From sequence record OL656110.1: a stretch of DNA of 64,000 nt, one strand, 5' to 3'. A program made the position numbers and the translations under genes. The DNA comes from Escherichia phage vB_EcoM-RPN242. Positions 44,749 through 45,260 of this stretch are shown here, piece by piece (position 1 is the first letter of the stretch; each line of letters opens with the position of its first letter). The notes below the pieces were generated by a model. That model saw only the letters and a list, made by a program, of their open reading frames with translations. It made no database searches and was not told where the DNA came from.

Positions 44749-44896
44749 TGTTTGAAACTGATTTATTATCCTACTTCGTGATGTGTGATGAATTGAAGTT
44801 ACACGGCTATAGCATATTTGAAATCAACGAGTCGATGCCATGGCATCTTGACTTGTTAACCGAAGCCCTCAAGGTCAGGTTGTCTAAGAAACAGTA

Positions 44897-44918
44897 ATCC
44901 CGCTTCGGCGGGATTTTT
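44897..44918 (+). terminator. rho-independent terminator
   Basis: stem ATCCCGC/GCGGGAT with TTCG loop followed by TTTTT. Confidence 0.7.
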
Positions 44919-45260
44919 ATTGGCTTAACTGTAAAATCGGTTAACACGAACTTTCTTTACCTGAAATTGCTATAATGGGCTTGTTCCCGAGTCATTTGTT
45001 GGTGTTTGTCTGTTTTGAATCAGATTGTCAGTAAAATACCATTTTTCAAGGAGTGTTCTGGGGTGTACAGTTATTGCCTCGCCCTTATGCCTCCATGGCA
45101 TTGGAATGGTGCTGCCCGCATAGGGCGGTTTGATGAGCGAAGCGAATAGGATCGAATAAAACAAATAAAATGAACGGAAGCAGAGCTTCCTATAGTATAT
45201 AAGGCAAAATCAGCTGCGCATAAATACCTTCAAATCCTTGTTTGACAACCGGAATTCAAT

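What the first reader, a model, noticed from the sequence alone, without database searches (positions are those of the whole stretch)
44749..45260. Largest ORF-poor region (~510 bp) upstream of the spike gene
It contains a strong terminator (44897-44918), a TATAAT box (44971-44976), a near-consensus late box CATAAATA (45219-45226) and only tiny ORFs. This may be a regulatory hub separating two transcription units, or encode a small RNA.
Basis: seen in the sequence. Interest (0 to 1): 0.4.

Follow-up and report, generated by a model that had tools for sequence, protein, structure and literature searches.

The report
Conserved structured spacer before phage spike gene
The gap in front of this phage's tail-spike (gp5) gene holds a small real gene, a terminator, promoters and a strongly conserved folded non-coding element not found in the RNA-family library Rfam, which recurs in front of two other key genes and whose job is unknown.

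Summary
The window comes from a ViI-like phage (Ackermannviridae), 99% identical to Escherichia phage LHE287.

- **Not all non-coding.** The first 150 bp (44748-44897) are a conserved 49-aa gene, weakly similar to T4 gp51. The true spacer is 363 bp.
- **Ordinary parts.** It has an intrinsic terminator (44896-44915), which co-varies across genera. It also has a T4-type late promoter, CATAAATA (45219-45226), invariant in eight genomes. Both are already predicted in relatives.
- **New part.** The core 45085-45151 is among the best-conserved DNA locally. It has no frame shared across genera, no Rfam match and no E. coli or plasmid match.
- **Structure.** It folds on the + strand into a hairpin with a probable pseudoknot, a second hairpin and a GAGCGAAGCGA mini-hairpin. 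All 224 aligned base-pair cells pair, and 5 pairs show compensatory change.
- **Copies.** Paralogues lie upstream of gp6 and, partially, gp45. The mini-hairpin persists in Miltonvirus and a Vibrio phage.

My best reading is a structured leader or small RNA made before late transcription and bypassed by late transcripts. The function is unproven, and an origin or priming signal on single-stranded DNA is a live rival.

The parts
44748..44897 (+). orf49: a conserved 49-aa gene. Its ATG overlaps the gp26 stop (TAATG). It is probably a mini-homologue of T4 gp51, the baseplate hub assembly catalyst.
   Evidence: It is annotated in relatives. It matches phrog_9633 at E = 2.9e-39 over 49/49 positions, and phrog_634 'baseplate hub assembly catalyst' at E = 4.4e-4. 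Substitutions are of the synonymous type across genera. Homologues follow gp26 in Miltonvirus, Vibrio and Aeromonas phages. Nucleotide identity to Kuttervirus and Taipeivirus is 0.81-0.92 over 44737-44856.
44896..44921 (+). Intrinsic terminator of the gp26-orf49 unit: stem 44896-44903 / 44908-44915, loop TTCG, tail TTTATT. The stem begins inside the orf49 stop codon.
   Evidence: Found by the scan. Energy -15 kcal/mol, z = -4.18. 96% of cells pair, with a U-A to C-G change kept across genera. Annotated as a terminator in phage May and in LIMEstone1.
44922..44945 (.). Conserved block GGCTTAACTGTAAAATCGGTTAAC between the terminator and the -10 box. Its role is unknown; a promoter-upstream or protein-binding site is possible.
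   Evidence: It is unique in the window even with 3 mismatches allowed, against 0 expected. It is largely conserved in Agtrevirus, Limestonevirus and two of the three Taipeivirus genomes compared (May, IME250).
44967..44976 (+). Extended -10 promoter element TTGcTATAAT, of sigma-70 type with no recognisable -35. The inferred start site is near 44983.
   Evidence: Read directly from the sequence. The TGnTATAAY form is kept in 7 of 8 genomes from four genera. The scan, which requires a -35, did not call it. Activity is inferred.
45009..45024 (+). Small hairpin UCUG-UUUUGAAU-CAGA that displays a conserved UUGAAU in its loop.
   Evidence: Read from alignments A1 and A3. Taipeivirus has CUAAGC-UAUUGAAU-GUUUAG at the same place, a different stem around the same loop. 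This was not tested formally because the alignment register differs.
45033..45071 (+). Second promoter-like motif: A-tract, then TTTTC, then 17-18 nt, then TG-TACAGT. If it is active, transcription would start near 45078, about 9 nt before P2.
   Evidence: In the whole LHE287-type genome the motif occurs in an intergenic gene-upstream position only before gp5, gp6 and gp45. There were two other hits, one inside a gene and one an AT-rich palindrome. The mean over shuffled windows was 0.07. It is conserved in all four genera. An alternative reading is an RNA hairpin UGU...ACA that changes to CAU...AUG.
45085..45151 (+). Conserved structured core.
- P2: 45087-45091 / 45097-45101, loop UCCAU.
- Probable pseudoknot: 45093-45096 with 45106-45109.
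- P3: 45111-45117 / 45123-45129, loop GCAUA.
- P4, the mini-hairpin GAGCGAAGCGA: 45135-45145, with tandem G-A pairs, 2 bp and a GAA loop.
   Evidence: Covariance-model hit of 90 bits, the only one in the window. 16 pairs, 224 of 224 cells paired, 5 pairs changed on both sides, against 0-1 in the slid controls. Identity to Kuttervirus and Taipeivirus is 0.83-0.89, level with or above the best flanking coding windows. There is no Rfam match, no reading frame shared in register across genera and no E. coli or plasmid match.
45176..45190 (+). 3' hairpin GGAAGC-AGA-GCUUCC. It may mark the weak terminator or 3' end of the element. It also forms the spacer of a weak sigma-70-like promoter.
   Evidence: Energy -8.1 kcal/mol, z = -2.84. 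100% of cells pair, with an A-U to U-A swap in Taipeivirus. It is followed by UAUAGUAUAU, which is not a proper U-tract. The scan calls it terminator-like only on the minus strand.
45191..45196 (+). TATAGT, a -10-like hexamer directly after the 3' hairpin. It reads TATAAT in Kuttervirus and Taipeivirus.
   Evidence: Read from the alignments. Function is inferred only.
45219..45226 (+). T4-type late promoter CATAAATA for gp5-gp25, dependent on gp55, gp33 and gp45.
   Evidence: Invariant in 8 genomes and in Miltonvirus. All 4 ATAAATA sites in the window precede ORFs. A late promoter before gp5 was predicted for phiSboM-AG3 (PMC3121705) and annotated in LIMEstone1. Homologues of gp33, gp55 and gp45 are annotated in LHE287.
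45261..46871 (+). gp5-like baseplate hub and tail lysozyme gene (the 'spike'), the gene served by the late promoter.
   Evidence: phrog_430 at E = 1.3e-154. Pfam Gp5_OB and CHAP domains. Annotated as such in relatives.

Best explanation
The 512-bp 'ORF-poor' stretch is a compound regulatory junction in a ViI-like (Ackermannviridae) phage.

- **Small gene.** The first 150 bp encode a small, conserved, gp51-like protein that is translationally coupled to gp26.
- **Terminator.** An intrinsic terminator at 44896-44915 ends that transcription unit.
- **Late promoter.** Late in infection, RNA polymerase carrying the phage's gp55 and gp33, activated by the gp45 clamp, starts at CATAAATA (45219-45226). 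The resulting gp5-gp25 mRNA has a short, unstructured leader.
- **Structured element.** Between the terminator and the late promoter lies a conserved module. It has sigma-70-type promoter elements: an extended -10 at 44967-44976, and an A-tract / TTTTC / TG-TACAGT motif at 45033-45071. These are followed by a structured element on the + strand. That element consists of hairpin P2, whose loop probably pairs downstream to form a compact pseudoknot, then hairpin P3, then a mini-hairpin capped by tandem G-A pairs (P4, GAGCGAAGCGA), and finally a 3' hairpin at 45176-45190.

Proposed mechanism. I propose that host RNA polymerase transcribes this module before the late switch. The product would be a structured leader or short RNA of about 110-210 nt. 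It would either stop near the 3' hairpin or continue into gp5. Late transcripts bypass it because they start downstream of it. The element would therefore act only on pre-late transcripts of the genes it precedes (gp5 here; gp6 and gp45 elsewhere in the genome). Plausible actions are control of their read-through, stability or translation, or recruitment of a phage or host factor to the tandem G-A hairpin.

Shown: the gene, the terminator, the late-promoter motif, the conservation, the strand-specific base pairing and the three-copy family.

Inferred: that the element is transcribed, where that transcript starts and ends, and what it does.
For: - **Identity.** The window is 99% identical to Escherichia phages LHE287 and A221, and 93% identical to Agtrevirus Ag3.
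- **Gene.** See the orf49 evidence.
- **Terminator.**
- **Late promoter.**
- **Conservation of the core.** Identity to Kuttervirus and Taipeivirus is 0.83-0.89, against about 0.5-0.8 in most gp26 and gp5 coding windows. Against Limestonevirus the whole spacer is 92.6% identical, while the surrounding 3.1 kb is 87%.
- **Non-coding.** No frame is shared in register across genera, indels are not multiples of three, the AUG is lost in the paralogue and in Taipeivirus, and there is no ribosome-binding sequence upstream.
- **Structure.** 16 pairs in P2, the pseudoknot and P3 are paired in all 224 cells of 14 distinct sequences. Five pairs change on both sides (20 cells). No shuffle out of 500 reaches the covariation score, and slid controls give 0-1 such pairs.
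- **Strand.** The G-U/A-U and U-G/C-G alternations only work on the + strand.
- **P4 is a hairpin.** In the gp6 copy it is replaced by GCGAGGG-CGUCAGC-CCCUCGC.
- **Paralogues.** The covariance model gives 90 bits for the gp5 copy, 77.9 bits for the gp6 copy and 18.5 bits for the gp45 copy, with nothing stronger than 15 bits elsewhere in the genome. Each copy lies on the strand of its gene. Each is preceded by the same promoter-like motif and followed by an ATAAAT-type box.
- **Spread of each copy.** Each copy is conserved in about 270 phage records.
- **Depth.** The tandem G-A mini-hairpin is present twice in the Miltonvirus gp5 spacer. In Vibrio phage K351 it sits 12 nt after a TATAAT box, both before gp5 and upstream of gp6.
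Against: - No transcript data exist for any member of the family, as far as I could find.
- The core of the window copy folds no better than shuffled sequence (z = -0.83). The case for structure therefore rests on covariation alone.
- The covariation comes from few independent events: roughly one per genus plus the split between paralogues. Related sequences inflate the shuffle statistics.
- The extended -10 has no -35, and the inner motif is only promoter-like.
- The 3' hairpin lacks a U-tract, so termination there is doubtful.
- P2, the pseudoknot and P3 are missing from the gp45 copy and from the Miltonvirus gp5 spacer. The universal unit may therefore be only the mini-hairpin.
- One cis function has to suit two late structural genes and the early/middle clamp gene, which is awkward.
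- Nothing distinguishes RNA from single-stranded DNA as the molecule that folds.
Confidence: 0.45

Rival explanations
1. The folded molecule is single-stranded DNA, and the three copies are replication origins or priming signals. As in T4 R-loop origins, a promoter would fire and the transcript would stay hybridised. The displaced + strand would then fold into hairpins, including GCGAAGC and GCGTTAGC mini-hairpins. These would resist coating by single-strand binding protein and would recruit the primase or the helicase loader.
For: - GCGAAGC (45137-45143) and GCGTTAGC (in the gp45 copy) are the 'extraordinarily stable DNA mini-hairpins'. They are described at the primase start sites of phages G4, St-1 and alpha3, in ssiA of RSF1010 and in N4 early promoters (PMC13037366).
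- Each copy combines a promoter-like motif with downstream hairpins on the non-template strand.
- The three copies lie at about 61, 106 and 147 kb of a 149.5-kb genome. Each is at or near a point of divergent transcription and a local minimum of cumulative GC skew.
- Covariation with G-T wobble fits DNA hairpins as well as RNA ones.
Against: - GC skew in this genome follows gene orientation, so the minima carry no independent information.
- The unwinding regions of T4 origins are AT-rich and are not conserved through base pairing (my own knowledge).
- The sheared G-A pair that defines the DNA mini-hairpin is lost in some Taipeivirus copies (GCATAGC, GCAACGC).
- A pseudoknot with A-U to C-G compensation is more typical of RNA.
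- No replication data exist.
Confidence: 0.15
2. The element is a free-standing, trans-acting small RNA gene, one of two or three paralogues. It would titrate or guide a host or phage factor, and it would sit next to gp5, gp6 and gp45 only because those spacers tolerate insertions.
For: - It has its own promoter-like elements and a 3' hairpin before the late promoter.
- It is multi-copy, with conserved single-stranded motifs (UGGAAUGG and the GAGCGAAGCGA loop).
- It is more conserved than the neighbouring genes.
Against: - None of the copies has a convincing intrinsic terminator.
- Orientation always matches the downstream gene, and the association with gp5 and gp6 persists in a very distant Vibrio phage. 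That argues for a cis relationship.
- No complementary target was sought or found.
Confidence: 0.2
3. There is no folded nucleic acid. The conservation would reflect densely packed DNA sites, such as promoters and binding sites for phage transcription factors or nucleoid proteins. The apparent stems would be inverted-repeat operators.
For: - Several promoter-like hexamers and a conserved A-tract/T-tract lie in the spacer.
- The thermodynamic z-score of the core is unremarkable.
- Early and middle promoters of ViI-like phages remain unidentified (PMC3184105).
Against: - All 224 cells pair, with wobble-to-Watson-Crick alternations that make sense on one strand only.
- Hairpin P4 is replaced by a longer, unrelated, perfectly complementary stem in the gp6 copy.
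- Operators do not need G-T tolerance or a loop-to-linker compensation.
Confidence: 0.12
4. The core encodes a micro-protein, for example MPPWHWNG... from the ATG at 45088, or the ORFs annotated here in phages ChubbyThor and May.
For: - An open frame of 18-20 codons runs from that ATG in Agtrevirus, Kuttervirus and Taipeivirus.
- Two public records annotate small ORFs in the spacer, on opposite strands.
Against: - No ribosome-binding sequence precedes the ATG.
- The peptide diverges completely after 8 residues.
- Indels shift the frame between genera.
- The gp6 paralogue has CAG in place of this ATG.
- The other in-frame ATG (CCATGG) reads CCCTGG in Taipeivirus.
- The substitutions are compensatory pairs, not synonymous changes.
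- The two annotated ORFs are on different strands and are not conserved.
Confidence: 0.03

Closest known systems
T4 arrangement of a late promoter placed downstream of an early or middle promoter, so that early and late transcripts of one gene carry different leaders (T4 genes e, soc, 49 and I-TevI; from my own knowledge of the T4 literature)
   Same: A gp55-type late box (NATAAATA) lies a few tens of nucleotides before the start codon. Late mRNAs therefore lack the structured upstream sequence that longer, earlier transcripts would carry.
   Different: In T4 the upstream sequence pairs with the ribosome-binding site. Here I found no conserved pairing with the gp5 start region. For gp6, a CUCCAU/AUGGAG match is not compensated in Taipeivirus. 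The structure here is a self-contained pseudoknot-and-hairpin module, and it is also found before the non-late gene 45.
PeSL cassettes (promoter-early stem-loops) of T4-like phages (PMC2839356, PMC4122927)
   Same: Both are repeated intergenic units that combine a stem-loop with a sigma-70-type promoter. A metagenome contig appears recombined exactly at the repeat shared by the gp45 and gp5 copies. Repeat-mediated recombination of this kind is what is proposed for PeSLs.
   Different: PeSLs are numerous, simple (terminator stem plus promoter), lie in hyperplastic regions and flank variable ORFans. Here there are only three copies. They sit next to conserved core genes, their hairpins lie downstream of the promoter, and the structure is far more elaborate and conserved between genera.
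DNA mini-hairpins GCGNAGC / GCGNNAGC at phage G4, St-1 and alpha3 primase origins, ssiA of RSF1010 and N4 early promoters (PMC13037366)
   Same: The same heptamer and octamer occur here: GCGAAGC in the window and GCGTTAGC in the gp45 copy. They sit at the tip of a longer stem, in a phage, next to promoter-like sequences.
   Different: The known cases act in single-stranded DNA of small phages and plasmids. Here the context is a 150-kb double-stranded DNA phage. The motif is flanked by tandem G-A pairs, and the G-A pair inside the loop is not kept in all genera. No link to replication is shown.
Compact H-type pseudoknots in phage mRNA leaders, such as the T4/T2 gene 32 autoregulatory pseudoknot (my own knowledge)
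   Same: A small hairpin whose loop pairs with sequence just downstream, located in the 5' region of a phage transcript.
   Different: There is no sequence similarity. The pseudoknot here has 5-bp and 4-bp stems with loops of 1, 0 and 4 nt. It rests on a single compensatory change, seen in both paralogues of Taipeivirus. No binding protein is known.
Rfam families (release 15)
   Same: Only the terminator hairpin gives weak matches, to the 3' ends of isrB, RsmY and istR.
   Different: Nothing reaches a gathering score anywhere in the window. No family matches the core even at E = 10. The A-clade sequence CUGAUGA-GC-GAA-GC-GAA looks like a hammerhead core, but that resemblance is not kept in other genera and the scan does not report it.

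Membership tests
Intrinsic (Rho-independent) terminator | G+C-rich hairpin immediately followed by a T/U-rich tract, downstream of a gene on the same strand | tested here: met
   An 8-bp stem with 5 G-C pairs and a TTCG loop, followed by TTTATT. The stem begins inside the orf49 stop codon. Energy -15 kcal/mol, z = -4.18.
Intrinsic (Rho-independent) terminator | Hairpin maintained by compensatory change in relatives | tested here: met
   AATCCCGC/GCGGGATT becomes AACCCCGC/GCGGGGTT, and AACCCCAC/GTGGGGTT in another genus. One pair changes on both sides in 4 of 8 sequences, and 96% of cells pair.
Intrinsic (Rho-independent) terminator | Transcripts actually end there | not testable with these tools
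   No Term-seq or RNA-seq data were found for any Ackermannviridae phage.
T4-type late promoter (gp55/gp33/gp45-dependent) | TATAAATA-like -10 element with no -35, placed shortly upstream of a late gene | tested here: met
   CATAAATA (7 of 8 positions) lies 34 nt before the gp5 ATG. It is invariant in four genera plus Miltonvirus. All 4 ATAAATA sites in the window precede ORFs.
T4-type late promoter (gp55/gp33/gp45-dependent) | The phage encodes gp55, gp33 and gp45 | tested here: met
   These are annotated in the 99%-identical phage LHE287. gp33 falls inside the window's span (about 41476-41721, minus strand). gp55 and gp45 lie outside it. This rests on the depositors' annotation and was not re-tested.
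T4-type late promoter (gp55/gp33/gp45-dependent) | Late, replication-coupled transcription start 6-10 nt downstream of the box | not testable with these tools
   No transcript mapping is available.
Sigma-70 extended -10 promoter | TGnTATAAT | tested here: met
   TTGcTATAAT at 44967-44976. The TGnTATAAY form is kept in 7 of 8 genomes.
Sigma-70 extended -10 promoter | -35 hexamer at 16-18 bp (dispensable for this promoter class) | tested here: not met
   The best candidate at 17 bp is GAACTT, and the region is not conserved. The scan did not call the site.
Structured non-coding RNA motif | Base pairs kept by compensatory change, specific to one strand | tested here: met
   224 of 224 cells pair, 5 pairs change on both sides, and slid controls give 0-1. 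G-U/A-U and U-G/C-G alternations work only on the + strand. Few independent events underlie this result.
Structured non-coding RNA motif | Folding energy better than shuffled sequence | tested here: inconclusive
   The window core gives z = -0.83. The 3' hairpin gives z = -2.84, and the gp6 copy gives z = -3.03.
Structured non-coding RNA motif | Not protein-coding | tested here: met
   No frame is shared in register across genera, the indels shift the frame, and the start codon is not kept.
Structured non-coding RNA motif | The element is transcribed | not testable with these tools
   The only support is promoter-like sequences upstream.
Any Rfam 15 family | Score at or above the family's gathering threshold | tested here: not met
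   No hit in the whole window. Nothing matches the core at E up to 10.
PeSL cassette | Many copies in hyperplastic regions, flanking variable ORFans | tested here: not met
   There are three copies, next to gp5, gp6 and gp45, conserved in about 270 records each.
PeSL cassette | Stem-loop followed by an early promoter, acting as a recombination substrate | tested here: inconclusive
   The terminator is followed 50 bp later by a -10 box. One metagenome contig is recombined at the shared repeat, but it could be a chimeric assembly.
G4-type single-strand DNA priming signal (mini-hairpin origin) | GCGNAGC or GCGNNAGC mini-hairpin sequence | tested here: met
   GCGAAGC at 45137-45143. GCGTTAGC in the gp45 copy.
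G4-type single-strand DNA priming signal (mini-hairpin origin) | Conserved sheared G-A pair inside the loop | tested here: not met
   Taipeivirus copies read GCATAGC and GCAACGC. Kuttervirus reads GCTTCAGC.
G4-type single-strand DNA priming signal (mini-hairpin origin) | Primase starts there on single-stranded DNA | not testable with these tools
   This needs biochemistry or origin mapping.
T4 gp51 (baseplate hub assembly catalyst), for orf49 | Sequence similarity to the family profile | tested here: inconclusive
   phrog_634 at E = 4.4e-4, covering profile positions 60-107 of 121. There is no Pfam hit.
T4 gp51 (baseplate hub assembly catalyst), for orf49 | Position directly after gene 26 | tested here: met
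   orf49 follows the gp26 homologue in all genera examined. The T4 gene order 26-51 is from my own knowledge.

The most novel reading that the evidence does not exclude
The mini-hairpin module, together with the pseudoknot and hairpin in two of its three copies, is an ancient nucleic-acid signal that is shared across the phage family. It marks the gp5 (hub), gp6 (wedge) and gp45 (clamp) loci from enterobacterial Ackermannviridae to distant Vibrio relatives. On this reading it acts in one of two ways: as the phage's replication-origin or priming signal on displaced single-stranded DNA, or as a new class of RNA element, read by a dedicated factor, that co-ordinates the baseplate and clamp operons. 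Either would supply the first defined early/middle control element for ViI-like phages, whose non-late regulation is still unknown.
Probability: 0.2. Interest if true: 0.75.

Novelty: new variant of a known kind. Interest (0 to 1): 0.5.

Why it matters
ViI-like phages (Ackermannviridae) are widely isolated, and many of the source papers propose them for biocontrol or therapy. Yet their early and middle gene control is uncharted: they lack MotA and AsiA, and almost no promoters have been identified (PMC3184105).

The terminator and late promoter in this spacer are routine and were already predicted. The element between them is not. It is among the most conserved DNA in the neighbourhood. It is non-coding, it folds, it is absent from Rfam, and it recurs in front of the hub, wedge and clamp genes.

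If it is a leader or small RNA, it is a handle on how these phages time baseplate and clamp expression. If it is a DNA signal, it could mark their replication origins.

It also matters in practice. The repeats appear able to recombine with one another. Anyone engineering these phages around gp5 or gp6 would need to keep them intact.

Tried and rejected
- **Rfam** at gathering score over the whole window, and at E up to 10 over 44850-45300: only terminator look-alikes.
- **tRNA/tmRNA scan:** nothing.
- **Second copy inside the window:** none found by BLAST or by the covariance model.
- **Metagenome scan with the orf49 alignment:** 59 pattern matches, none confirmed.
- **Metagenome scan with the gp5 alignment:** one contig with a gp5 100% identical to the window's, plus 79 distant marine T4-like loci. 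None of the 79 carries the element. No sequences of intermediate divergence were gained.
- **Host mimicry:** the core has no match in 5,426 E. coli genomes or 72,556 plasmids.
- **Hammerhead ribozyme:** CUGAUGA-GC-GAA-GC-GAA occurs in one Agtrevirus-like contig. C3 and A14 are not kept in other genera and there is no Rfam hit. Rejected.
- **Lambda-type boxA:** CGCTCTTA lies before P2 in Ag3 and phiD3. It is not kept in the window, in Kuttervirus or in the gp6 copy. Rejected as coincidence.
- **Masking of the ribosome-binding site by CCUCC/CUCCAU in the P2 loop:** gp5 has no matching sequence. For gp6, Taipeivirus changes both partners to a C-C mismatch, whereas the local pseudoknot is compensated. 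Rejected as the general mechanism.
- **P1 helix CUCGC/GCGAG** proposed by RNAalifold: it is absent from the gp6 copy and competes with P4. Not adopted.
- **CsrA-sponge idea** based on several GGA motifs: the motifs lie mostly in stems or are not conserved. Not pursued.
- **Micro-ORFs:** rejected.
- **GC skew as evidence for an origin:** confounded by gene orientation.
- **Literature searches** for Ackermannviridae or Kuttervirus transcriptomes or non-coding RNAs: nothing relevant.
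Full report
**What the window is.** The 3.1 kb around the finding is 99% identical to Escherichia phages LHE287, A221 and AV101. 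It is 93% identical to Shigella phage Ag3 (Agtrevirus) and 87% identical to Dickeya limestoneviruses. About 270 Ackermannviridae (ViI-like) records match it. The flanking genes are a T4 gp26-like hub subunit (43942-44748; PF12322, phrog_150) and a gp5-like hub and lysozyme gene (45261-46871; phrog_430, Gp5_OB plus CHAP). Window coordinate = LHE287 coordinate minus 16020.

**Checking the observation.**
- 44749-45260 is the longest stretch of the window free of ORFs of at least 80 aa.
- The terminator hairpin is 44896-44915, followed by TTTATT. Its energy is -15 kcal/mol and z = -4.18.
- TATAAT is at 44971-44976. It is preceded by TGc, so it is an extended -10, but it has no usable -35 and the scan did not call it.
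- CATAAATA is at 45219-45226.

On counts alone the two short motifs are not unusual. Position and conservation are what make them credible.

**The first 150 bp are a gene.**
- ORF 44748-44897 (49 aa) starts on the last base of the gp26 stop codon.
- It is annotated in relatives.
- It matches phrog_9633 end to end (E = 2.9e-39). It matches 'baseplate hub assembly catalyst' (phrog_634, the T4 gp51 family) weakly (E = 4.4e-4).
- It diverges by synonymous-type changes.
- It is 81-92% identical at the nucleotide level to Kuttervirus and Taipeivirus over 44737-44856.
- Homologues containing MPWHL follow gp26 in Miltonvirus, a Vibrio phage and an Aeromonas phage.

The real spacer is therefore 44898-45260, 363 bp.

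**Terminator and late promoter are ordinary and already predicted.**
- The terminator stem is kept by compensatory change: AATCCCGC/GCGGGATT becomes AACCCCGC/GCGGGGTT, or AACCCCAC/GTGGGGTT.
- CATAAATA is invariant in eight genomes of four genera and in Miltonvirus.
- ATAAATA occurs only four times in 64 kb, each 23-64 nt upstream of an ORF on the same strand. One of these ORFs is the RuvC-like resolvase gene.
- Homologues of gp33, gp55 and gp45 are annotated in LHE287.
- The phiSboM-AG3 paper lists a late promoter before gp5 and another before gp6 (PMC3121705).
- The LIMEstone1 GenBank record annotates both the terminator and a late -10 at the homologous positions.

**The conserved core.**
- Between the terminator and the late promoter, the spacer is 92.6% identical to limestoneviruses. 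That is higher than the 87% of the surrounding 3.1 kb.
- A 40-nt sliding comparison with Kuttervirus and Taipeivirus peaks at 0.83-0.89 over 45057-45116. This is level with or above the best gp26 and gp5 coding windows.
- No reading frame is shared in register across genera. Indels are not multiples of three. The possible AUGs are lost in Taipeivirus or in the paralogue. The two ORFs that public records annotate here lie on opposite strands.
- Rfam finds nothing at gathering score in the whole window, and nothing over the core at E up to 10.
- There is no match in E. coli genomes or plasmids.

**Structure.** Fourteen distinct core sequences were compared: nine gp5-upstream and five gp6-upstream copies. 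Three helices are fully maintained.
- P2: 45087-45091 / 45097-45101.
- A loop-to-linker helix that makes P2 a compact pseudoknot: 45093-45096 with 45106-45109.
- P3: 45111-45117 / 45123-45129.

In total, 224 of 224 cells form standard pairs. Five pairs change on both sides (20 cells). No shuffle out of 500 reaches the covariation score, and slid controls give 0-1 such pairs. The G-U/A-U and U-G/C-G alternations work only on the + strand, the strand of gp5.

P4 (45135-45145, GAGCGAAGCGA) reads as two sheared G-A pairs, two Watson-Crick pairs and a GAA loop. In the gp6 copy of LHE287 and PhiSH19 it is replaced by GCGAGGG-CGUCAGC-CCCUCGC, which confirms that it is a hairpin. A 3' hairpin (45176-45190) keeps pairing through an A-U to U-A swap (z = -2.84).

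Caveats on the structure:
- The window core folds no better than shuffled sequence (z = -0.83).
- The compensatory changes amount to a handful of independent events.
- The pseudoknot rests on one change (A-U to C-G), seen in both Taipeivirus paralogues.

**A three-copy family.** Parts of the spacer recur outside the window in the 99%-identical phage LHE287.
- A covariance model of the core scores 90 bits at 45085-45151. It scores 77.9 bits upstream of gp6 (baseplate wedge) and 18.5 bits (P4 region only) upstream of gp45 (sliding clamp). No other site in the genome scores above 15 bits.
- Each copy lies on the strand of the gene that follows it.
- Each copy is preceded by the same promoter-like motif: A-tract, TTTTC, 17-18 nt, then TG-TAYNNT. 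In an intergenic, gene-upstream position the motif occurs only at these three loci. Two other hits were an intragenic site and an AT-rich palindrome.
- Each copy is followed by an ATAAAT-type late box.
- Each of the three spacers is conserved in about 270 records across Agtrevirus, Limestonevirus, Kuttervirus and Taipeivirus.
- The gp6 copy adds a long 5' hairpin, CUUYGAGUUGU-GAGUGUUAACGA-ACAACGARAAG. It shows a C-G to U-A swap and the same tandem G-A cap.

**Depth of conservation.**
- The Miltonvirus gp5 spacer has lost P2 and P3. It keeps two tandem G-A mini-hairpins, GUUC[GAGCAUUUGCGA]GAAC and CC-GAGCGAAGCGAG, and the promoter-like motif.
- In Vibrio phage K351, gp26 is only 31% identical. 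An identical UGGGGU[GAGCGAAGCGA]ACCCCA hairpin follows a TATAAT box by 12 nt. It occurs directly before gp5 and about 600 nt before the gp6-like gene. C-GAA-G hairpins follow TATATT boxes before gp45 and gp6.
- The mini-hairpin and its association with these genes are therefore much older than the full core.
- The core model finds nothing in 79 distant marine T4-like loci.

**How it most likely works.** The shown facts are the gene, the terminator, the late box, the conservation, the strand-specific pairing and the gene-linked three-copy family.

The inferred mechanism is as follows. Before the late switch, host polymerase starts at the extended -10 (start near 44983), at the inner motif (start near 45078), or at both. 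It makes a structured RNA of about 110-210 nt. This RNA either ends near the 3' hairpin or continues into gp5. Late polymerase starts at CATAAATA and bypasses the element, so the element acts only on pre-late transcripts. I put this at about 0.45.

The rivals:
- A free-standing trans-acting small RNA (0.2). Arguing against it are the lack of a proper terminator and the fixed orientation and gene association.
- Hairpins in displaced single-stranded DNA of an R-loop-type origin or priming signal (0.15). This is prompted by the identity of GCGAAGC and GCGTTAGC with the stable DNA mini-hairpins of the G4, St-1 and alpha3 primase origins (PMC13037366), and by the spacing of the three copies. The GC-skew minima at the copies are confounded by gene orientation.
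- Densely packed DNA sites with no folding (0.12).
- A micro-protein (0.03).

**Comparison with what is known.**
- The terminator and the late promoter are members of their classes on every feature I could test.
- The element is not a member of any Rfam family.
- It is not a PeSL cassette. It has three copies next to core genes rather than many copies in plastic regions. One metagenome contig is recombined exactly at the repeat shared by the gp45 and gp5 copies, which resembles the recombination proposed for PeSLs.
- It resembles the T4 early/late dual-leader design, but it lacks the pairing with the ribosome-binding site that defines those cases.

**Verdict.** The flagged features are real and mostly routine. 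The worthwhile result is a conserved, folded, three-copy non-coding module that is not in Rfam and that I found in no paper or database record searched. I rate it a new variant of a known kind, of moderate interest, with its function open.

Noticed in passing
window 44746-44750, with L007 430-436 and L006 446-452: The orf49 start ATG overlaps the gp26 stop (TAATG). In Kuttervirus and Taipeivirus the same position reads TAATT, so there is no canonical start codon. Yet the first ten codons stay conserved with synonymous changes. This suggests re-initiation at AUU after termination, or a -1 slip on U_UUC that fuses orf49 to gp26.
   Followed up: partly
L034 1290-1420 (metagenome contig CYGL01000298.1): In a contig whose gp5 is 100% identical to the window's, the 5' half of the gp45-upstream spacer is joined to the 3' half of the gp5-upstream spacer. 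The junction is exactly at the shared TGAGCGAAGCGAATAGGAT. This is either a roughly 44-kb inversion between the inverted repeats or a chimeric assembly.
   Followed up: partly
L116 36745-37117 (LHE287 gp6-upstream), compared with window 44898-45260: In LHE287 the gp6-upstream spacer is 93% identical to Kuttervirus phages. Its gp5-upstream spacer is instead closest to Agtrevirus and Limestonevirus and only about 73% identical to Kuttervirus. The regulatory spacers are mosaic and have different histories.
   Followed up: no
window 43729-43756 (+): A perfect sigma-70 promoter, TTGACA-16-TATAAT (12 of 12 positions), lies upstream of the gp26-like hub gene. It sits in the divergent spacer shared with the minus-strand genes. 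This is unexpected for a structural gene.
   Followed up: no
window 42886-42893 (-): A second CATAAATA lies 38 nt upstream of the RuvC-like Holliday-junction resolvase ORF (42257-42847). This recalls the late promoter of T4 gene 49.
   Followed up: partly
L032 3581-3603 and L123 39668-39690 (Vibrio phage K351): An identical 35-nt unit, TGGGGT-GAGCGAAGCGA-ACCCCA-TAATCCCCTTTA, occurs twice, each time 12 nt after a TATAAT box. One copy lies before gp5 and the other about 600 nt before the gp6-like wedge gene. Similar C-GAA-G hairpins follow TATATT boxes before gp45 (L124, about 16046-16060) and before gp6.
   Followed up: partly
L115 40530-40575 (minus strand; LHE287 gp45-upstream): A 22-nt direct repeat, TTAATAAAGGTTATTATCTT, occurs twice in tandem. 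It lies between the mini-hairpins and a 9-bp hairpin that contains CATAAATG.
   Followed up: no
window 44970-45164 (-) and 45006-45149 (+): Public records annotate small 'hypothetical proteins' inside the spacer on opposite strands: ChubbyThor gp110 on the minus strand and phage May gp093 on the plus strand. Neither frame is conserved, so they are probably over-annotation of the structured element.
   Followed up: yes
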